From the human T2T-CHM13v2.0 reference genome, Homo sapiens, in NCBI RefSeq assembly GCF_009914755.1, contig NC_060930.1: 64,000 nucleotides of DNA; one strand, written 5' to 3'. How positions within the stretch are numbered: the first letter of the stretch is position 1; every line of letters starts with the position of its first letter. This document shows, piece by piece, positions 1-23,020 of this stretch. A program made the translations under genes and the position numbers. The notes under the pieces are model-generated. The model was not told the DNA's origin, did no database searches, and was given only the letters and a program-made list of their open reading frames with translations.

Positions 1-1019
1 CTGCAGGCAGGGACAGGGGCTGAAGCTCTGGCAGTTTCTCATTGTCTGGTTGCTATCTTGCTCTTCCTGGTATGTTGGGCTGGGTAGGGTGGAGAGACGG
101 GCAAGTTGCTGGCCTTTAGATGGCAAAGGGGTTGGCAAGTTGGATGGACCATTAGGGTAAAACTTGGGGAAGAGGCAGGGTTTCCACCAGGATGAATCAG
201 CTGTCTAGGTCCCCTCTGTGACAGCAGTTTAAATTCTGGCCTGGTCTCAGGCTGCCTGCACTCTTGGCTCCAACACTCAGACTGTCCAGAATCTCACTCA
301 ACAAATCCAGTTATTCTCTAGACCTCAAGATGCTGCTGCCTATAGCTTCTTTTGCCATAGGCTCCCCTCATCCTTAGGGCTCAGAGGAGGTGTTCTAGAT
401 GAGGATGGGCAGCCTCAGGTATTTGCCTGAGAGCCCCAGCCCTAGTCAGGCTGCTCTGGAGTTTGGGTACCCTTCTCCGCATCAGTTGTGGCCTCCTGCT
501 TTCAATATTGGTGCTCCCCTTTAGCTTTACCCCTCCCTTGGGGGCTTAGAAGTTTTCTCTTCCAGCTGGAGTCTCTTGCTGGGGTGGAGGGGCTGGTTCT
601 GCAAAGGGTGGGAAAGACAGGACCTTGGGAGCTTCAGAATCAGGGGGCTGAGGCTTGTTGGAAGAGGGTGAGTGTGAAGTGGGTGCCAAATATTAGGGTA
701 AGTGAGGAGAGAGGCAAGATGTCTGGATGGGGACTGGGGTGGGTGGAGGATTCAGTGATAATACCAAGCATGTGTATGGGGGAAGGGGTGTTCTCACCTG
801 TTCAAAGTGCTGAGTGATAGGCAGGTGCTGCTGCAGGTGATCTGAGTGGCTGGTGAGGGCTAGACCCTCAAGGAGCACCTCCTCTGGAGGCCAGAATCCC
901 CATCCAAGGAAGAGAATGCCTGAGCTGGGAGCCCCTCCCACACCCCCCAGATATTAGCCTTTGGCTGGTCTTACCTTATAGATTAGCAGGCTCTGCATCC
1001 CCCTCAAGCTACACTTGGC
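1..1019 (-). pseudogene. DENND1C: DENND1C-like pseudogene fragment with retained introns (five 3' exons; continues off the left edge)
   Basis: Minus-strand exons: 1019-975 (AKCSLRGMQSLLIYK), 904-798 (DGDSGLQRRCSLR/ALTSHSDHLQQHLPITQHFEQ), 598-531 (NQPLHPSKRLQLEEKTSKPPREG), 394-188 ([47 protein letters not shown]) and 79-1 (PNIP..QPDNEKLPELQPLSLP). These are colinear with the recalled DENND1C C-terminus. GT..AG borders except one AG>TG at 906-905; frameshifts and stops present. Symbol is the parent gene. Confidence 0.88.
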
Positions 1020-1502
1020 CTATAGAAGCACTACGGGAGAATTACACCTGAGGCTGATTGGACCCTGGGCATTTCAGAGCTCAATCCTCTTATCTCATAA
1101 GACAGCTTCATCTTGCTATCTGTCCAGCTCTGTGTCTTAAATATGTTCACAACCCCCCATGCACCATCTAAGAAATCAATACAAACTTTCACTCCTTTGG
1201 CTAATACAAAGGGAGTATTCCAGGAGGAAATAATCACCAAATAAAATGAAAAGTGGCAAAACAACGTTGTACAAGTGTTCATGGCTCAAAGCCATAAAGT
1301 ATAAAATTACGTGAACAATTTTGAGCTGCAAAAGTTGGCTCCAGGAAACTTGTCGGCTTGGGAGAAAAAAAAAAAAAAACACATAAGGGCAAAAGCTGGG
1401 ATTATATGGTCCAAGGACAAAGGATGCTTGCCAGTGAATCTTGGTTGTCAATTTTAAAGAAGCGGGCTATGATTTTGACAAAAAGGAGCATGATGAATGG
1501 AA

Positions 1503-1539
1503 AATAAAAGTGGGAAGACTTGTTAATAGAAAAAAAAAA
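1503..1539 (+). terminator. Putative polyA signal and A-tail ending the DENND1C-antisense segment
   Basis: AATAAA at 1503-1508 and an A-run at 1530-1539, followed directly by the Tigger3b-derived GATTAT. Confidence 0.5.
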
Positions 1540-1546
1540 GATTATG

Positions 1547-1871
1547 GGCCAGGTGTGGTGGCTCACACCTGTAATCCCAGCACTTTGGGAGGCCAAGGAG
1601 GCTGGATCACTTGAGGTCAGAAGTTTTTGAGACCAACCTGGCCAACATGGTGAAACCCCATCTCTACTAAAAATGCAAAAATCAGCTGGATGTGGTGGCA
1701 CGCCTGTAATTACACCTGTAATTACACCTATAATCCCAGCTACTCGGGAAGCTGAGGCACAAGAATCACTTTAACCTGGGAGGCAGAGGTTGCAATGAGA
1801 CAAGATCATGCCACTGCACTCCAGCCTGGGCAACAATGTAAAACTGTGTCTCAAGAAAAAAAGAAAAAAAA
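1547..1871 (+). mobile_element. AluS
   Basis: Dimeric Alu; TSD AGAAAAAAAAGATTAT-like at about 1528-1545 and 1862-1877. Confidence 0.95.
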
Positions 1872-3302
1872 GATTATAATGAAGCTGAAAAAATTTTATT
1901 GCCTAGTGATATCATAGCTGTCATAATGTTGCAAGGCAACACATTACTCGCATGTTTGTAGGGATACTGGTGTGAACAAACCTACTGCACTGCCAGTCAT
2001 ATAAAAGTATAGTATGTACAATTATGTACAGTAAATAAAACTTGATGATAATAAATGTTATTTATTTATATATTTACTATACTATATTTTTAATTATTTT
2101 AGAGTATACTCCTATTTACTAAAAAAAAAAAAAAAAAAAAGTTAACTATAAAACAGATTCAGGCAGGTCCTTCAGGAGGTATTCCAGAAGGCATTGTTAT
2201 CACAGGAGATGACAGACAGCTCTATGTGTGTTATTGCCCCTGAAGATCTTGAAACGGGAAAAAATGTGGAGGAGGAAGACAATGATATTGATGACTCTGA
2301 CCCTGTGTAGGCTTAGGGTAATGTGTGTACTTATGTCTTAGTTTTTAACAAAAATGCCTTAAAAGTAAAAAATACATGTAAAAATAGAAAAAATGCTTTT
2401 AGAATAAGGATATAAAGAAAGAAAATATTTTTGTTTGGCTGTACAATGTGTTTGTGTTTTAAGCTAAGCATTATTACAAAAGAGTAAAATAATTGAAAAA
2501 ATTATAAAGTTGATAAAGTAAAAAAATTATAGTAAGCTAAGGTTAATTTATTATTAAAGGAAGAATACTATTTTTTAAATAAATTTAGTATAGCCTAAAT
2601 GTGCAATGTGTATAAAATCTACAGTAGTGTATAGCAGTATCGTAGACTTTCACATTCACTCACCACTCACTCACTGACTTACTCAGAAAAACTTGCAGTT
2701 TTGCAAGCTCCATTCATAGTACCACTTTTTAAAATATATATATTTTTTCTTTTGATATAGGGTTTTGCTCCTGTTACCCAGGCTAAAGTCACTGCAGCCT
2801 TGAACCTTCTGGGCTCAAGCGATCCTCAGACTTCAGCCTCCCAAGTAGATGAGATCACAAGTACATGCCATGACACATGGCTAGTTTTCAAAAAATTTTT
2901 GTAGAGACAGGGTCTCCCTATCCTGCCTAGGCTGGTCTCAAACTCCTAGGCTCCAGTGGTCCTTCTGCCTCGGACTCCCAAAGTGATGGGATTACAAACA
3001 TGAGTTATCGCACGTGGCCTCATTTTTTTTTAATCTTTTACGCCATATTTTTACTGTACCTCTTCTATGTTTGGATGCACAGATACTTATCATTGTCTTA
3101 CCATTGCCTACAGTATTCAGTACAGTAATGTGCTATACAGGTTTGTAGCCTCGGAGCAATAGGCTATACCTTATAGCTTAGGTGTGTAGTAAGCTATAGC
3201 ATCTAGGTTTGTGTAAATACACTCTATGATTTTCATACAATGAAATCACTTAATGACACATTTCTCAGAATATATCTGCATCATTTAGAAACACACAACA
3301 GT
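1870..3302 (+). mobile_element. Tigger3b/MER7 (Golem) DNA transposon, 5' end missing, interrupted by AluJ
   Basis: AAGATTATAATGAAGCTGAAAAAATT...GCCTAGTGA and CAGGCAGGTCCTTCAGGAGGTATTCCAGAAG motifs; terminal end at about 3302. Confidence 0.8.
2743..3019 (-). mobile_element. AluJ within Tigger3b
   Basis: Diverged antisense Alu with J-type motifs. Confidence 0.9.
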
Positions 3303-3307
3303 ACTAA

Positions 3308-3879
<572 letters not shown>

Positions 3880-4624
3880 TATACTAAATTAGTTTTTAGG
3901 ATTTTCTTGTTCTTAACCTAGACTTAATTCTCTGTTAATATATTTCCACATGATTTTGATATAGACTTCAAATTTATTGCAAAAATAGCCCTCATTTTGT
4001 TTATCTTTTAATATTCAGTATCGTGAAGATGGCCTGGCATATAAAGGGTAATAAATAGATGTTAGTTGAATCAAGTCCATGAAACAAGTAAATAATGACA
4101 GAAACATTTGTATTGATATCACTAAAGAGAGCCTCAACTTCCAGCTTGGCAAATGAGAAAACTTGCTTGGCAGGGGCAGGAGTCCTGGGCTTCCAGTCTA
4201 CTGGGCAGATGCACTGTTAACAGAAGGGCAAGAATATTTCCTTATAAGCTGTAAACTTCTTCAGGATTCTAGGAAAGTGGGAAGGACAGAGATAGGAATA
4301 TAGCAGAGGTCCTACCAAAAGATGGATAAAGTGCACCTCCAGGACATTTAATGAGCAGGCCATCTCGCTAGATAACAGTAGACGTCCTCCTGGCTTAATG
4401 TAAGATTAAATACAGTCAAGGGCTCCGCACGAACATATTCATGCTCTATCTTCTAAATGTGGTTTCTGTCAATGTTGCAATGTAAATGCATGCATATCTC
4501 TACTAACCTTTAAGGTAATGATACTGTGTTTTGGGGCATTTCATATGAAGAGTCCATCAAACTGGCATCATTGTTCTCCAATCATCCAAAAAATAAATAT
4601 TATGTACAATAAAACATAAATTTC

Positions 4625-5327: not shown

Positions 5328-6608
5328 GTTACAAAATTAAGGTACAAGTTAATTCAAAAAGTTAATAATTAATAAATACAAAAATAACAAGGTTATAACC
5401 ATCACAAGATGTCCATTAATCAAACTAAGAGTGACAAGGACAGAAAATTTTGAGGTTATGTAAAAGCAAACTACTTTGGAAGAATGCAACTTACAAAAAG
5501 CAAAATTTAAACCGATGTATTCATGAGTTGCCCAGCTGTAAGTGGGAAGGATCAGTAGGAATACATGCCATGATCCATAATATCAGCCATGGGCGTGTAG
5601 GTGAAAATTGTACCAAGTCTTTCACCTTTGGCCTAATATCTGGTTTAGCTCTAGAGAAGTCTGTGTTAAAATGTATGCGACTGGAGCATGCAGTTATGAT
5701 GACAGGGCAAAAGGCTGATTTAAGATTTTCTATTGGTCAGGATTACTTACGTAAACAGATGGCATACCCAAAGGTTTAATCAAAGAAAGTTTAATGAAGG
5801 TAGTACTTACCAACATGTGAAAAGGGATTAAGGCAACTGACAACAAAGAGTAAAGCTCCCAGTGACGAGCAACTGTAAGCAGCCATTACTACTGCTAAGC
5901 ATGAAGACATGAGCAGCAACTAGAACTCTAGCTGCTAGCTGTAAAGGAGCTCTTGTTTTCTTGAAGACGTAGGAGGTGAAAAAATACTATGAGAGTGACA
6001 AGGTGAAGGTGGATGTGGAAGTTTGATGACAGTGGATTTTTTTTAGTCAATCTAAAGTGAGAAATTTGGCTCACGAAAGAAATATATATAGTTGTCAGGC
6101 AACTGAAAACCATTGAGCCTGTTGAACATAAATTCATAGTAAATCCTGCACTCTTGTGTCTTTTCTCCAGTGGTGTTCAGATAGCCAGAAGCAAGCTTGG
6201 AGAAAATATGTGGGTTCATCCCATGTTGCTTTCACCAAGAAGATATGATGGAAAGATAGAAAAATAATGTTTAATATTTTTACAAGAGAGTAATTTAAGA
6301 ACTTGACCATGACATCCAAGATAGATAAGGAAGAGCCCTAACTGATAGAGAAAAGAGTAAGAATCAAGGGCCTGAAGATTCTTATTTCTTCTAAAAACTT
6401 TTACCATAAAAGTACTTAAACACATAAGCTGAAATAATAAGGGACTTTGGTCAGGAAGTGGACTATTTGAATTAGTGACTTTGGAGTAGATCCTGCCTGG
6501 TGATTTTCAGGCTCAAAATGTAATTTTGGAACAGATATATAATTGGAGCAGGTAGGTCATTGGAAATGAGAAGTTAATAATTGAGCAATCTGGAAATTAG
6601 ATGGGTGA

Positions 6609-7077
6609 TGTGATGATAAATCTCATGTGTCAACTTGACTAAGCCATAGTACCCAGATGTTTGGGCAAACACCAACCTTAATGTAGCTATAAAGGTTTTC
6701 TTTTTTTTTTTTAAGATGAGATTAACATTTAAATAAGTAGACTTTTGATAAAGCAGATTACCCTCCATAATATGGTTGGGGCTCATCCAGTCAACTGAAG
6801 TTCTTAGAAAAAAACTGAGGTCCCCTCAAAAATAAGAAATTTTATTTCCAAACTGCCTTCAGAATCAAGCTGCAACATCAACTATTTCCTGGCTCCCCAG
6901 CCTGCCAACCTACCCTGTAGATTTTATACTTGTCAAGCCCCACAATCACATGAGCCAATTCCTTAAAATAAATTTATATAGAGATAGATAGATGATAGAG
7001 AGAGAGAGAGAGACAGAGAGAGAGAGAGAGAACAACATTCTATTGGTTCTGCCTCTCTGGAGAACTAATCTAATATA
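6609..7077 (+). mobile_element. MLT2 (ERVL) solo LTR with internal (GA)n
   Basis: Starts TGTGATG...TGTGTCAACTTGACT; ends TATTGGTTCTG.CTCTCTGGAGAACT..CTAATA. Confidence 0.85.
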
Positions 7078-7280
7078 GGTGATAAATATGGATGTTAAAG
7101 TCTAGGAATTCTTTGAAAAATGATCCTAGGTTATTATTTTAAGTAAAAGTTTGCATTTATGGGCTGGCAGCCATGAAGTACTTGGGAGGGTTGGGCTAAG
7201 GTCAGGAGGATGTAATACTAAGTAAGGTTTGTGGTGCAGACTACTTTTGAGGAGGAAAGGTCAAGATACACACTCCACAT

Positions 7281-7850
7281 CTAAATCTGTGGGATGACAT
7301 AAAAACAGAATTTAGGGGGAAATTTGTAGTATTAAATGCCTAAATTTAGAAAAAATAAAGGACTCAAAACAATGTCTTTAGCTTGGACCTTGAGAAATAA
7401 AAGATCAAATGAAATCCAATGCAAGCAGAAAAAGAAAATAAAGATCAAAACATAAATTAAGTAGAAAACAGAAAACAGTGGGAAAAATCAGTGACACCAA
7501 AAAATAGTTTCGGGGGAAGATCAATACAATTGATAAAACTCTAGCCAGAAAAGGAAAAAAAGAGAAGACAAATTAGCAATATCTAGAATGACAGAGGTGA
7601 GATCACTACACATTCTACAATAACCTTTACTATTCTACAAATACTAAAAGGTTAATAGGACAATATTACTGGGGTAAACAGACTTTAAAGTATTCCCGTG
7701 ATTCCCACATCCTGGTGTTCGTGACTTTGTATAATCCTTCATCCTTAGGTGTGAGCATGACCTGTAACTTGCTTCTAAACAATGGAATGTGGTAAAGGCA
7801 ATGAGATACACGTGTTTACATGTATCAGGTTACATGAGAGACTTGCTAGC

Positions 7851-7893
<43 letters not shown>

Positions 7894-8345
7894 CATTGCT
7901 GGCTTTTAAGAAGCAAGCCGCCATGAGTCCTACAACCACAAGGAAATGAATTCTGCCAACAACTCAATAGAGCCTGGAGGAATATATTTCCCTGATGAGA
8001 ATCCAGTCCTAGATGACACTTTAATTGCAGCCTATGAGACCTTAAGCGAAGGACCTAGCTAAGCCATGCCCAGACTCCTAGAAGATGCTCAGAAACTGAG
8101 ATAATAAATGTGTTTTAAGCCACTAAGTTTGGGGCAATTTATTACATAACAATAGATAAATTATGTACAACTTAAAATACAATCATGGGCAACTTTGATA
8201 AAAATGCGTTAACTTAAATTTCCTCAAAAAATACAAATTACCAAAGCTTACTCAAAAAGAAATAGATAATATTAATAGATGGAATCTACCAAAAAAAATC
8301 CAGAACTAATATGTAAGCTTAGCAAGATTTCTATTTACTATAGAA
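7281..8345 (+). mobile_element. Old L1M ORF2 fragments interrupted by MaLR LTRs
   Basis: Degenerate A-rich ORF2-like sequence (GATCAATACAATTGATAAAACTCTAGCCAG). Confidence 0.7.
7668..8165 (+). mobile_element. MLT1 (MaLR) LTR
   Basis: AAGGAAATGAATTCTGCCAACAAC and TTTTAAGCCACTAAGTTTGGGGCAATTTATTAC motifs. Confidence 0.8.
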
Positions 8346-8347
8346 AT

Positions 8348-8682
8348 CTTAGTCTGTTCAGGTTTCTGTAATAAAATACTATCAAGTAGGTGGTTATACA
8401 CAACAGTTTATTACTCACAGTTCTGGAGGCTGGTATATTCAAGATCAGGACACCAGCAGATTCAGTGTCTGCTGAGGGACCACTTTCTTATAGATGGACA
8501 TCTTCTCCCTGGAACTTCATAGAGCAAAAGAGTCAAACAAGCTCTCTGGCATCCCTTTTATAAGTACACTAATACCATTCATGAGGGGATCACCAAAGGC
8601 CCCATCTTCTAATGTCATAACCTTAGGAGTTAGAATTTCAACTAACTTTTATGGGGGAGACATAAACATCCAGTCCATTGCA
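8348..8682 (-). mobile_element. MLT1A/MST-type MaLR LTR
   Basis: TCTTAGTCTGTTCAGG...CACAGTTCTGGAGGCTGG...AACATCCAGTCCATTGCA. Confidence 0.8.
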
Positions 8683-8712
8683 ATGATTAATATACTAAAA
8701 AAAAGTATTTCT

Positions 8713-9546
8713 TTTTTTTATTTTATTATTATTATACTTTAAGTTTTAGGGTACATGTGCACAATGTGCAGGTTAGTTACATATGTATACATGTGCCATG
8801 CTGGTGCACTGCACCCACTAACTCATCACCTATCATTAGGTATATCTCCCGATGCTATCCCTCCCCCCGCCCCCCACCCCACAACAGTCCCCAGAGTGTG
8901 ATATTCCCCTTCCTGTGTCCATGTGATCTCATTGTTCAATTCCCACCTATGAGTGAGAATATGTGGTGTTTGGTTTTTTGTTCTTGCGATAGTTTACTGA
9001 GAATGATGATTTCCAATTTCATCCATGTCCCTACAAAGGACATGAACTCATCATTTTTTGTGGCTGCATAGTATTCCATGGTGTATATGTGCCACATTTT
9101 CTTAATCCAGTCTATCATTGTTGGACATTTGGGTTGGTTCCAAGTCTTTGCTATCGTGAATAGTGCCACAATAAACATACGTGTGCATGTGTCTTTATAG
9201 CAGCATGATTTATAGTCCTTTGGGTATATACCCAGTAATGGGATGGCTGGGTCAACTGGTATTTCTAGTTCTAGATCCCTGAGGAATTGCCACACTGACT
9301 TCCACAATGGTTGAACTAGTTTACAGTCGCACCAACAGTGTAAAAGTGTTCCTATTTCTCCACATCCTCTTCAGCACCTGATGTTTCCTGACATTTTAAT
9401 GATTGCCATTCTAACTGGTGTGAGATGGTATCTCATTGCAGTTTTGATTTGCATTTCTCTGATGGCCAGTGATGGTGAGCATTTTTTCATGTGTTTTTTG
9501 GCTGCATAAATGTCTTCTTTTGAGAAGTGTCTGTTCATGTCCTTCG

Positions 9547-9548
<2 letters not shown>
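8713..9548 (-). mobile_element. L1PA (young primate, about PA2-4): 3' segment of an inverted insertion
   Basis: Antisense L1 3'UTR and ORF2 end with tail at 8713; TSD AAAAAAAAGTATTTCT at 8697-8712. Confidence 0.95.
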
Positions 9549-13124
<3,576 letters not shown>

Positions 13125-22570: not shown

Positions 22571-23020
22571 CTAGGAACCTCAGGACTCAAGGGGAAATAC
22601 AGTGATGACATCCCTGGATTTTCTTTTTGTCTCATGTATTCCAGATTTAGAGCTGAAGAAGTCAGTAACTGGGAAACACCAAAGTGTATAGACTAAAAAG
22701 CCCCCACAAAAGCCAGCTACTTCTAGCCAAAAAACCAGGAAAGGGGCAGCCTAGCAGGGCAGAAACCTTATAGACAATAGCTACTCTAAACAAACCCACA
22801 GAAAAAGCTGTGCCCCACCCCCACCGTGCCAGCAAAGAAAACTAGACTTCCCTCTTCACAGCATGAGGGGAACTTTGACTCCCAGCCTAGCAGTAATGAA
22901 GCAACCTTCCTTTCCCCACTGGGGTGGTGCCAGAGGATGCCCAGCAGAGTGTCAGGGCTTTCACTATCACCCATAGGTAATGAGGCCACCCTTGCCATGG
23001 TGTCAGTAGAAGTGAGGAGC

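What the first reader, a model, noticed from the sequence alone, without database searches (positions are those of the whole stretch)
1..1545. Intron-retaining DENND1C relic that looks like a retrocopy of an ANTISENSE (CRB3 read-through) RNA
Seen: five DENND1C-like exons with intact short introns on the - strand, invisible in the ORF track. On the + strand the segment ends in AATAAA (1503) and an A-run about 22 nt later (1530-1539). Immediately after it, ignoring the Alu in the tail, a Tigger3b starts internally at AAGATTATAAT. Known: CRB3 and DENND1C lie tail-to-tail on 19p13.3, as do CRB1/DENND1B and CRB2/DENND1A, and an antisense RNA would not splice out DENND1C introns. Inference: an extended CRB3 (or other antisense) transcript ran through the DENND1C 3' exons, was polyadenylated in a DENND1C intron and was retrotransposed into the Tigger3b. 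That would be fossil evidence of an ancestral germline sense/antisense overlap, and a route by which retrotransposition moves intact exon-intron structure.
Basis: partly seen in the sequence, partly recalled or inferred. Interest (0 to 1): 0.85.

Follow-up and report, generated by a model that had tools for sequence, protein, structure and literature searches.

The report
CRB3 read-through retrocopy carrying antisense DENND1C
This stretch of human chromosome 6 is a dead reverse-transcribed copy of an unusually long CRB3 messenger RNA that ran backwards through the end of the neighbouring DENND1C gene, which is why it holds DENND1C exons with their introns; it is a tidy molecular fossil with no sign of a present function.

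Summary
Window 1-1529 is colinear with chr19 DNA (82% and 73% identity). It carries relics of the last five DENND1C exons on the - strand with all four introns between them.

Reading about 4 kb left of the window shows the same copy continuing into CRB3 on the + strand. There, 3 of 3 CRB3 introns are missing. Homology to chr19 stops at window 1529, 21 nt after AATAAA (1503-1508), and a 10-A run follows that chr19 lacks.

The whole unit (window -3975..1539) is flanked by a 10-bp duplication, AAGATTATAA. It sits inside a multi-copy repeat whose other copies are uninterrupted at that point.

It is therefore an L1-type retrocopy of a spliced CRB3 mRNA. That mRNA was polyadenylated 2.9 kb beyond the usual CRB3 site, inside a DENND1C intron.

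A second CRB3 retrocopy on chr3 marks the usual site. A protein tree places the chr6 event outside crown anthropoids and best on their stem.

RefSeq's "DENND1C pseudogene" is a passenger of this CRB3 retrocopy. It is a good fossil of a known kind of event, of moderate interest.

The parts
1..79 (-). In-window end of the relic of the last DENND1C exon (aa 598-801 plus stop; the whole relic is -538..79).

Parts of the same unit lie LEFT of the window and cannot be entered as rows. Places are chr6 position minus 64542000:
- 5' end of the host repeat: about -4057..-3979.
- 5' target-site duplication AAGATTATAA: -3988..-3979.
- Spliced CRB3 exons 1-4: -3975..-3457 (+).
- Later LTR-like insertion with Alus: -3456..-1329.
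- CRB3 3'UTR and the interval between the stop codons: -1328..-539 (+).
   Evidence: for the exon. The hub's table gives RefSeq LOC100133007 as -734..60. Out-of-window parts.
1..1529 (+). In-window part of the retrocopy body. It is a copy of the 3' extension of the CRB3 source RNA, colinear with chr19 6457527-6459631. The chr19 Alu pair 6458511-6459069 has no counterpart here.
188..393 (-). Relic of the DENND1C exon for aa 529-597
   Evidence: 179 matches, 27 mismatches.
530..598 (-). Relic of the DENND1C exon for aa 506-528
   Evidence: 58 matches, 11 mismatches.
798..904 (-). Relic of the DENND1C exon for aa 470-505
   Evidence: 88 matches, 19 mismatches. Its acceptor AG is mutated to TG.
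975..1019 (-). Relic of the DENND1C exon for aa 455-469
   Evidence: 39 matches, 6 mismatches.
1020..1529 (+). Copy of about 505 nt of the next DENND1C intron, read antisense. It is the 3' end of the source RNA.
   Evidence: 373 matches, 108 mismatches.
1503..1508 (+). AATAAA poly(A) signal, also present at the matching place on chr19 (6459607-6459612)
1530..1539 (+). Remnant of the poly(A) tail (10 A); chr19 reads TTTAAC at this point
1546..1869 (+). Alu inserted later into the tail/duplication, with its own duplicated A-run+GATTAT (1538-1545 and 1870-1877)
1870..1879 (+). 3' target-site duplication AAGATTATAA, followed by the rest of the host repeat

Best explanation
Window -3975..1539 (chr6 64538025-64543539) is one L1-mediated processed retrocopy of a CRB3 mRNA with a very long 3' end.

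**Shown**
- The source RNA started at or near CRB3 exon 1.
- It had all three CRB3 introns removed and was the ERLI isoform.
- It did not stop at the usual CRB3 poly(A) site (chr19 about 6456701, 20 nt after a TATAAA variant signal).
- It ran on for 2930 more bases of today's chr19, or 2371 without a later Alu pair.
- That stretch is antisense through the last five DENND1C exons and their introns.
- It was cleaved and polyadenylated 21 nt after an AATAAA inside a DENND1C intron.

**Inferred**
- DENND1C splice sites are meaningless on the opposite strand, so the introns stayed in the RNA.
- L1 endonuclease and reverse transcriptase then copied the RNA into a nick at T/AAGA within a Tigger-like repeat on chr6. 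This made the 10-bp duplication.
- The event took place in germline or early-embryo cells of an ancestor that lived before the split of New World and Old World anthropoids.
- An LTR-like element and four Alus were inserted into the chr6 copy after that.
- Two further Alus were inserted into the parental chr19 intron.

The copy is decayed and has no evident function. RefSeq's 'DENND1C pseudogene' here is a passenger, not an independent duplication of DENND1C.
For: (1) Introns removed. Four chr19 blocks are contiguous on chr6: 6453788-839, 6454091-270, 6455023-105 and 6455964-6456166. On chr19 the intervening DNA starts with GT and ends with AG at the exon 1/2 and 3/4 junctions.

(2) One colinear piece. 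The next chr6 block, -1332..942, resumes at chr19 6456159 and the last block ends at 6459631. The only breaks are a TG...CA insertion with a CTGG duplication on chr6 and a 559-bp Alu pair on chr19.

(3) Gene names come from tools. CRB3 is named (100% to a 120-aa CRB3). DENND1C is named (100% to human DENND1C, 801 aa) and (DENN domain hits on the - strand at 6465323 and 6466338).

(4) 3' end. Both sequences read ...GTTAAT, then chr6 has 10 A while chr19 has TTTAACTGCTGG. AATAAA is present in both, 21 nt upstream. A TTTGTGTTT stretch follows on chr19. No alignment is found beyond that point once the Alu is removed.

(5) Duplication and empty sites. AAGATTATAA lies on both sides. Other copies of the repeat are uninterrupted there, with the flanks overlapping by 10 bp.

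(6) Poly(A) signals. There is no AATAAA or ATTAAA on the chr19 + strand between the CRB3 stop (6456157) and 6459596. The site used is therefore the first canonical signal after the stop.

(7) Independent fossil. A chr3 CRB3 retrocopy ends at chr19 6456701 and carries the isoform-2 splice. This shows where CRB3 mRNA normally ends.

(8) Age. Identity is 81% without gaps and K2P is 0.224. The tree puts the copy as sister to crown anthropoids with support 85/89. A position inside catarrhines is rejected (p-AU 0.0003).
Against: - The A-run is only 10 nt long.
- About 3-5 bases (AAGAG) between the 5' duplication and the clear start of homology are of uncertain origin. I had no annotation to confirm that chr19 6453786 is a CRB3 transcription start.
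- The exon 2/3 junction keeps 9 nt of intron (CCTCCACAG). The implied upstream acceptor reads AC, not AG, on today's chr19, so an ancestral AG has to be assumed.
- The last 560 nt are more diverged (73%, K2P 0.27) than the rest (0.15-0.21).
- The dating is loose. Support for the anthropoid-stem position is 85/89, not starred. An origin before all primates is not rejected (p-AU 0.28).
- The chr6 copy has an AATAAA at -815 where chr19 reads AACAAA. The ancestral RNA may therefore have skipped a canonical signal, or this one arose later.
- Nothing here shows that the distal site is used today.
Confidence: 0.93

Rival explanations
1. DNA-level (segmental) duplication of the chr19 CRB3-DENND1C tail-to-tail region to chr6, giving an unprocessed DENND1C pseudogene, which is how the RefSeq label reads.
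For: DENND1C introns are all retained and the copy is colinear with genomic DNA over about 3.4 kb of chr19.
Against: 3 of 3 CRB3 introns are missing at or next to their splice sites. Homology ends at a non-templated A-run 21 nt after AATAAA. At the 5' side it starts at CRB3 exon 1, with no promoter homology. A 10-bp duplication flanks the unit, and empty-site structure is seen in other repeat copies.
Confidence: 0.01
2. Two separate events that landed side by side: an ordinary CRB3 processed pseudogene, plus an independently derived DENND1C fragment. The fragment could be a retrocopy of unspliced sense DENND1C pre-mRNA.
For: The two parts are today 2.1 kb apart on chr6, and RefSeq annotates only the DENND1C part.
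Against: - The 2.1 kb gap is a single TG...CA insertion with its own CTGG duplication, and chr19 coordinates are continuous across it (6456166 / 6456159).
- The copy includes the whole 832-bp interval between the two stop codons.
- A sense DENND1C retrocopy would carry its tail on the other strand at the DENND1C 3' end. Instead that point lies in the middle of an uninterrupted alignment to chr19, with no junction.
- There is only one pair of duplications, and it lies at the outer ends.
Confidence: 0.01
3. Not a true distal poly(A) site: reverse transcription was primed internally on an A-rich stretch of a longer nascent or read-through (DoG-type) CRB3 transcript, so the 3' end says nothing about polyadenylation.
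For: The region just upstream is A-rich on chr19, with three overlapping AATAAA within 6459596-6459612. The remaining A-run is short at 10 nt.
Against: Homology continues for 21 non-A-rich bases past the A-rich stretch and then meets pure A where chr19 reads TTTAAC. The spacing of signal, cleavage point and downstream T/GT-rich stretch is what a real site looks like.
Confidence: 0.04
4. Chimeric retrocopy made by template switching of the L1 reverse transcriptase from a DENND1C-antisense non-coding RNA to a CRB3 mRNA.
For: An antisense transcript over DENND1C is reported in human liver long reads: a 700-nt transcript, Ensembl ENSG00000275234, in Table 2 of PMC11603882 (passages seen).
Against: A template switch would give a junction that is not colinear with the genome. 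Here the CRB3 3'UTR runs on into the DENND1C region exactly as on chr19.
Confidence: 0.01

Closest known systems
Ordinary L1-mediated processed pseudogenes (retrocopies), including the second CRB3 retrocopy found here on chr3 (G000:C3:1388230-1388881, - strand)
   Same: Parental introns are removed, the site is dispersed on another chromosome, there is no promoter homology, and both are decayed. The chr6 copy also ends at a poly(A) tract with flanking duplications; on the chr3 copy neither was clearly seen.
   Different: The chr3 copy stops at the usual CRB3 site (chr19 6456701) and carries the isoform-2 splice. The chr6 copy uses a site 2.9 kb further on, so it drags along five exons and four and a half introns of the convergent neighbour in antisense.
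PIPSL, a hominoid retrogene made by retrotransposition of a read-through, intergenically spliced PIP5K1A-PSMD4 transcript.
   Same: Retrotransposition of an RNA that ran from one gene into its neighbour, so that one retrocopy holds parts of two genes.
   Different: PIPSL joins two genes on the same strand by splicing and is expressed. Here the neighbour is on the opposite strand, is unspliced and non-coding in the RNA, and the copy is dead.
Semi-processed (intron-retaining) retrocopies such as rodent preproinsulin I (Soares et al. 1985). Only the reference-list entry was seen, in PMC5470649; the content is recalled.
   Same: A retrocopy that still contains intron sequence.
   Different: There the retained intron belongs to the copied gene itself, through incomplete splicing. 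Here the copied gene (CRB3) is fully spliced, and the introns belong to another gene read backwards.
Processed pseudogenes used as 'genomic fossils' of old transcript isoforms (Shemesh et al. 2006, PNAS). Only the reference-list entry was seen; the paper is not held and its content is recalled.
   Same: The same logic applies: a retrocopy records a splice form or 3' end of the parent mRNA at the time of insertion.
   Different: This case records a sense/antisense overlap between two convergent genes. I could not check whether that paper lists such cases.
Read-through / downstream-of-gene (DoG) transcription into neighbouring genes. Abstracts of PMC9732411, PMC12246424 and PMC12564374 were seen in the listing.
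   Same: RNA polymerase passes the normal end of a gene and enters the next gene.
   Different: DoG RNAs are described as stress-linked, largely nuclear extensions. This RNA was spliced, cleaved at a canonical signal, polyadenylated and available to L1 proteins, so it looks more like an alternative-polyadenylation isoform.

Membership tests
L1-mediated processed pseudogene / retrocopy | Introns of the transcribed parent gene are absent | tested here: met
   3 of 3 CRB3 introns are absent. Two junctions are exact at GT-AG sites; one uses a point 9 nt upstream of the canonical acceptor.
L1-mediated processed pseudogene / retrocopy | Non-templated poly(A) tract at the 3' end, 10-30 nt after a poly(A) signal | tested here: met
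   10 A at 1530-1539, absent from chr19. AATAAA lies 21 nt upstream in both copies.
L1-mediated processed pseudogene / retrocopy | Target-site duplication of about 7-20 bp flanking the whole insert | tested here: met
   AAGATTATAA at -3988..-3979 and 1870-1879. A 10-bp flank overlap is seen in other copies of the host repeat.
L1-mediated processed pseudogene / retrocopy | Nick site resembling the L1 endonuclease consensus TT/AAAA (consensus recalled) | tested here: inconclusive
   The target reads CAT/AAGATT, that is T/AAGA, a near match only.
L1-mediated processed pseudogene / retrocopy | Homology limited to the transcript, with no promoter or downstream flank | tested here: met
   There are no non-repeat chr19 matches left of -3974 or right of 1527 in the 16 kb of chr6 compared with 30 kb of chr19.
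Unprocessed pseudogene by segmental duplication | All introns of all genes in the segment are retained, and homology runs past transcript ends | tested here: not met
   CRB3 introns are absent and homology ends at the poly(A) site and at exon 1.
Retrocopy of sense DENND1C RNA (semi-processed) | A retrocopy boundary (poly(A) tail) at the DENND1C 3' end on the - strand | tested here: not met
   The DENND1C 3' end lies inside the unit, in the middle of an uninterrupted alignment to chr19 that runs on into CRB3. I did not separately scan that point for a T-run.
Template-switch chimeric retrocopy | A junction between two RNAs that is not colinear in the genome | tested here: not met
   The CRB3 and DENND1C parts are colinear with chr19.
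   No repeat library was available. It was shown only to be a multi-copy dispersed repeat: 2200 first-look candidates, 40 of 40 scored hits at 77-100%. The name agrees with my memory of the consensus, which is not a test.

The most novel reading that the evidence does not exclude
The distal CRB3 poly(A) site inside the DENND1C intron is not just a past accident. It is still intact on human chr19: three overlapping AATAAA, a T/GT-rich stretch downstream, and it is the first canonical signal after the CRB3 stop.

A long CRB3 isoform overlapping five DENND1C exons in antisense may therefore still be made, at least in germline or early-embryo cells. It may have persisted for more than 40 million years as a sense/antisense link between an epithelial polarity gene and its convergent DENN-domain neighbour.

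The same tail-to-tail arrangement at CRB1/DENND1B and CRB2/DENND1A would then hint at an old, shared constraint. The 700-nt liver transcript antisense to DENND1C (ENSG00000275234, PMC11603882 Table 2) could be a piece of this isoform.
Probability: 0.3. Interest if true: 0.6.

Novelty: new member of a known kind. Interest (0 to 1): 0.45.

Why it matters
- **Annotation.** It corrects a reading of the annotation. LOC100133007 ('DENND1C pseudogene') is not a separate DENND1C duplicate. It is the passenger part of a CRB3 retrocopy about 5.5 kb long today (3.4 kb originally). The CRB3 part is not in the RefSeq table given with the finding.

- **Classification.** A pseudogene fragment that keeps its introns need not come from DNA duplication. 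An RNA from the opposite strand can carry exon-intron structure to a new place. This matters for pipelines that sort pseudogenes into 'processed' and 'unprocessed' by intron content.

- **A dated record.** It records that a spliced, polyadenylated CRB3 RNA overlapped 2.1 kb of DENND1C in antisense in heritable cells of an early anthropoid-lineage ancestor.

- **Two isoforms.** Together with the chr3 copy, it records two CRB3 isoforms (ERLI with the distal site, CLPI with the proximal site).

No present function is indicated.

Tried and rejected
- **Rfam.** A scan of window 1-4000 at gathering thresholds gave 0 matches.
- **Pfam on CRB3 exon 4.** Only sub-threshold membrane-segment matches were returned and no CRB3 family. 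The gene was named by a homology search instead.
- **Literature, this locus.** 'CRB3' + 'DENND1C' gave 8 papers, none about the locus judging by titles and abstracts. 'CRB3P1' gave 0 papers. 'DENND1C' + 'pseudogene' gave 10 papers, none on this pseudogene. 'CRB3' + 'alternative polyadenylation' gave 14 papers. The one I opened (PMC12456218, passages) reports an intron-retention CRB3 isoform in breast-cancer cells, not a long 3' end.
- **Literature, the general case.** Searches on read-through, antisense and retrocopies gave no listed paper describing a retrocopy that carries a convergent neighbour's exons and introns. I saw only listings and abstracts, so this is not proof of absence. Shemesh et al. 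2006 could not be read.
- **Dating.** The AU test could not exclude an origin before primates (p 0.28).
- **Alu subfamilies.** I did not try to classify the Alus, because no consensus library was available.
- **CRB3 transcript ends.** I tried to place them from remembered hg38 coordinates. The numbers did not reconcile with T2T, so I dropped them.
Full report
**What is in the window.** Window 1-1545 has exactly two non-self relatives in the genome, both on chr19 on the same strand. Window 9-942 matches 6457544-6458477 (82%, E 1e-264). Window 966-1527 matches 6459073-6459631 (73%, E 9e-90). The window is chr6 64542001-64606000 of the assembly held. Below, places at or under 0 are chr6 position minus 64542000.

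**Naming the chr19 genes with tools.**
- A 204-residue ORF on the chr19 - strand is 100% identical to human DENND1C, 801 aa (P0003).
- Pfam finds uDENN, DENN and dDENN domains in P0003.
- The DENN model hits the chr19 - strand at 6465323-6465424 (28 bits) and 6466338-6466484 (20.5 bits, below the cut-off).
- On the + strand, the translation of chr19 6455953-6456156 is 100% identical to a 120-aa CRB3 (P0078).
- The CRB3 stop is at 6456157-6456159. The DENND1C stop is at 6456991-6456993 on the other strand. The two genes are therefore tail-to-tail, with 832 bp between the stop codons.

**DENND1C exons and introns in the copy.** Exact peptide matching places the last six DENND1C coding exons on chr19, each with AG before it and GT after it. 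A global alignment of chr6 -1332..1529 with chr19 6456159-6459631 maps five of them into the copy:

| DENND1C residues | chr6 place |
|---|---|
| aa 455-469 | 975-1019 |
| aa 470-505 | 798-904 |
| aa 506-528 | 530-598 |
| aa 529-597 | 188-393 |
| aa 598-801 plus stop | -538..79 |

- All four introns between these exons are present.
- The fourth intron is 70 nt on chr6 and 641 nt on chr19, because chr19 holds a 559-bp Alu pair there.
- 505 nt of the next intron follow (window 1020-1527).
- 8 of 9 splice dinucleotides survive on the - strand.
- Read through with X at breaks, the relic is 236 of 333 residues identical to human DENND1C, with 4 stops and 9 gap-hit codons.
- Overall there are 2275 matches, 533 mismatches and 719 gap columns. 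That is 81% identity without gaps and K2P 0.224.

**What lies to the left.** I compared 16 kb of chr6 (window -10000..6000) with 30 kb of chr19 and set aside Alu-like multi-hit stretches. That left a single colinear + strand chain:

| chr6 place | chr19 place |
|---|---|
| -3974..-3923 | 6453788-839 |
| -3928..-3751 | 6454091-270 |
| -3750..-3674 | 6455023-105 |
| -3663..-3457 | 6455964-6456166 |
| -1332..942 | 6456159-6458477 |
| 966..1527 | 6459073-6459631 |

- The first four blocks touch each other on chr6 but are 251, 752 and 858 bp apart on chr19.
- The gaps on chr19 are the three CRB3 introns. The spliced chr19 exons translate to the CRB3 signal peptide and ectodomain.
- The spliced exons align to chr6 with 425 matches and 104 mismatches.
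- The exon 1/2 and 3/4 junctions are at canonical GT-AG sites.
- The exon 2/3 junction keeps the last 9 intron bases (CCTCCACAG, 9 of 9 identical). An alignment that includes them scores 567 against 538 without them.
- The source RNA thus used a point 9 nt upstream of today's acceptor. chr19 now reads AC there, so an ancestral AG is assumed, not shown.
- The copy runs straight through the ERLI stop codon, so it is the isoform-1 form.

**The interruption.** Between -3457 and -1328, chr6 has 2128 bp that chr19 lacks. The insert starts with TG and ends with CA, is flanked by CTGG on both sides, and contains Alus. It is a later LTR-like insertion. I only describe it. chr19 coordinates are continuous across it, so the CRB3 and DENND1C parts are one piece.

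**The 3' end.**
- After removing the Alu at 1546-1869, chr6 and chr19 align up to ...GTTAAT.
- chr6 then has 10 A followed by GATTATAATG... of the host repeat. chr19 has TTTAACTGCTGG, and there is no further similarity.
- AATAAA lies 21 nt before the break in both. chr19 has three overlapping copies at 6459596-6459612 and a TTTGTGTTT stretch about 35 nt downstream.
- On today's chr19 + strand there is no AATAAA or ATTAAA anywhere between the CRB3 stop and this cluster.

**Insertion site.**
- AAGATTATAA occurs at -3988..-3979 and at 1870-1879.
- The right flank is a dispersed repeat: 2200 first-look candidates, and 40 of 40 scored hits at 77-100% identity.
- Eleven other copies were fetched. 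All 11 align to the right flank from its first or third base.
- Six of them also align to the left flank at the adjacent place. In five of those six, the left flank ends 10 bp past the point where the right flank starts. For example, in L011 the left flank ends at 1510 and the right flank starts at 1501.
- This is the structure of an empty site plus a 10-bp target duplication.
- The nick site reads T/AAGA.
- The repeat's name (Tigger3b) matches my memory of the consensus but was not tested.
- The Alu in the tail has its own duplication of the A-run plus GATTAT.

**A second fossil.**
- A search with the CRB3 exon-4 peptide found another copy at chr3 1388492-1388629.
- It is a retrocopy with exons 1(part)-2-3-4 spliced. 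It has one further intron removed (chr19 6456097-6456434, GT...AG).
- It is 77-90% identical to chr19.
- It matches human CRB3 isoform 2 (P0097) at residues 21-123 in one frame.
- Its homology ends at chr19 6456701, 20 nt after a TATAAA. No clear A-tail survives there.
- This marks the usual CRB3 3' end. The chr6 copy ran 2930 bp further, or 2371 bp without the Alu pair.
- A weak variant signal at the proximal site would explain leakage to the first canonical signal. That last step is inference.

**Age.**
- I aligned the read-through translation of the chr6 relic with 28 of the 74 DENND1C proteins. I chose them to span primates and other mammals.
- In a maximum-likelihood tree (29 rows, 351 columns), the chr6 copy is sister to crown anthropoids with support 85/89. 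The crown group itself has 100/99.
- Forcing the copy inside catarrhines is rejected (log-likelihood 33.4 lower, p-AU 0.0003).
- Forcing it outside all primates is not rejected (5.5 lower, p-AU 0.28).
- The event is therefore older than the New World/Old World split and is best placed on the anthropoid stem.
- K2P of 0.224 between the copies fits tens of millions of years. I give no finer figure, because the rate would be assumed.

**Mechanism.**
- Shown: splicing of CRB3, colinear extension through DENND1C in antisense, a non-templated A-run after a conserved AATAAA, a target duplication, and an interrupted host repeat.
- Inferred: L1 proteins did the copying, from the duplication and nick-site pattern. 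The cell was germline or early embryonic, because the copy is inherited. The DENND1C introns stayed because their splice signals are not signals on the opposite strand.

**Rivals.**
- Segmental duplication fails on the missing CRB3 introns, the tail and the duplication.
- Two independent events fail on colinearity across the LTR-like insert.
- Template switching fails for the same reason.
- Internal priming is unlikely, because 21 non-A-rich bases separate the A-rich stretch from the tail and chr19 has no A-run at the break.

- The CRB3 peptide also hits chr9 135574617-793 (+) and chr1 196739505-681 (+).
- DENN hits lie at higher coordinates on the - strand of both chromosomes: chr9 135828174-135849981 and chr1 196876799-196901841.
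- This is consistent with CRB2/DENND1A and CRB1/DENND1B being convergent too. I did not name those genes with a tool or measure the distances between their 3' ends.

**Literature.**
- I found no description of this locus.
- No listed paper describes a retrocopy that carries a convergent neighbour's exons and introns. I saw listings and abstracts only.
- PMC11603882, Table 2 (passages) lists a 700-nt human-liver long-read transcript antisense to DENND1C (ENSG00000275234). Its position within the gene is not given in the text I saw. I did not open that paper's supplements, which may hold coordinates.
- PMC12456218 (passages) reports an intron-retention CRB3 isoform, not a long 3' end.

**Verdict.** The thing is an ordinary kind of event, an L1-type retrocopy of an alternative 3'-end isoform, with an unusual and instructive passenger. 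It has no evident function. Its value is as a dated record of CRB3/DENND1C antisense overlap and as a correction to how this 'DENND1C pseudogene' is read.

Noticed in passing
G000:C3:1388230-1388881 (- strand); locus L023: A second, younger-looking CRB3 retrocopy, 77-90% identical to chr19. It is spliced as isoform 2 (CLPI), with the extra intron chr19 6456097-6456434 removed. It ends at chr19 6456701, 20 nt after TATAAA. It is 5'-truncated within exon 1, no clear A-tail survives, and it is embedded in TA-rich sequence.
   Followed up: partly
window -3751..-3742 (chr6) and chr19 6455023-6455031: The chr6 copy keeps the last 9 bases of CRB3 intron 2 (CCTCCACAG), an in-frame 3-codon extension. 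This implies an acceptor 9 nt upstream of the canonical one. Today's chr19 reads AC, not AG, at that point.
   Followed up: partly
chr19 6456160-6459595, + strand (loci L007, L021): There is no AATAAA or ATTAAA on the CRB3 strand for 3.4 kb after the CRB3 stop codon. The first canonical signals are the cluster used by the chr6 copy. The chr6 copy has extra AATAAA at -815 and 1240, where chr19 reads AACAAA and AAGAAA.
   Followed up: partly
window -3456..-1329: An LTR-like insertion (TG...CA ends, CTGG duplication) sits inside the retrocopy. It is itself hit by Alus at about -3214..-2604 (a pair) and -2099..-1795. Described only; family not named.
   Followed up: partly
chr19 6458511-6459069 (locus L007): A pair of Alus lies in the DENND1C intron between the exons for aa 455-469 and aa 470-505. 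It is absent from the chr6 copy, so it was inserted after the retrocopy was made.
   Followed up: partly
chr19 6457805-6457807 (DENND1C codon 569): The T2T chr19 translation differs from the database human DENND1C protein (P0003) at one residue. The exact-match blocks break at aa 569. This is probably an ordinary allelic difference.
   Followed up: no
G000:C9:135574617-135574793 (+) and G000:C1:196739505-196739681 (+): CRB3-tail-like exons, presumably CRB2 and CRB1, lie upstream of - strand DENN-domain hits on the same chromosomes.
   Followed up: partly
window 1-46322 (- strand gene LGSN, from the hub's table): The whole retrocopy lies inside an intron of LGSN, on the opposite strand. No RefSeq functional element in the table overlaps it; the nearest is a silencer at 22743.
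   Followed up: no
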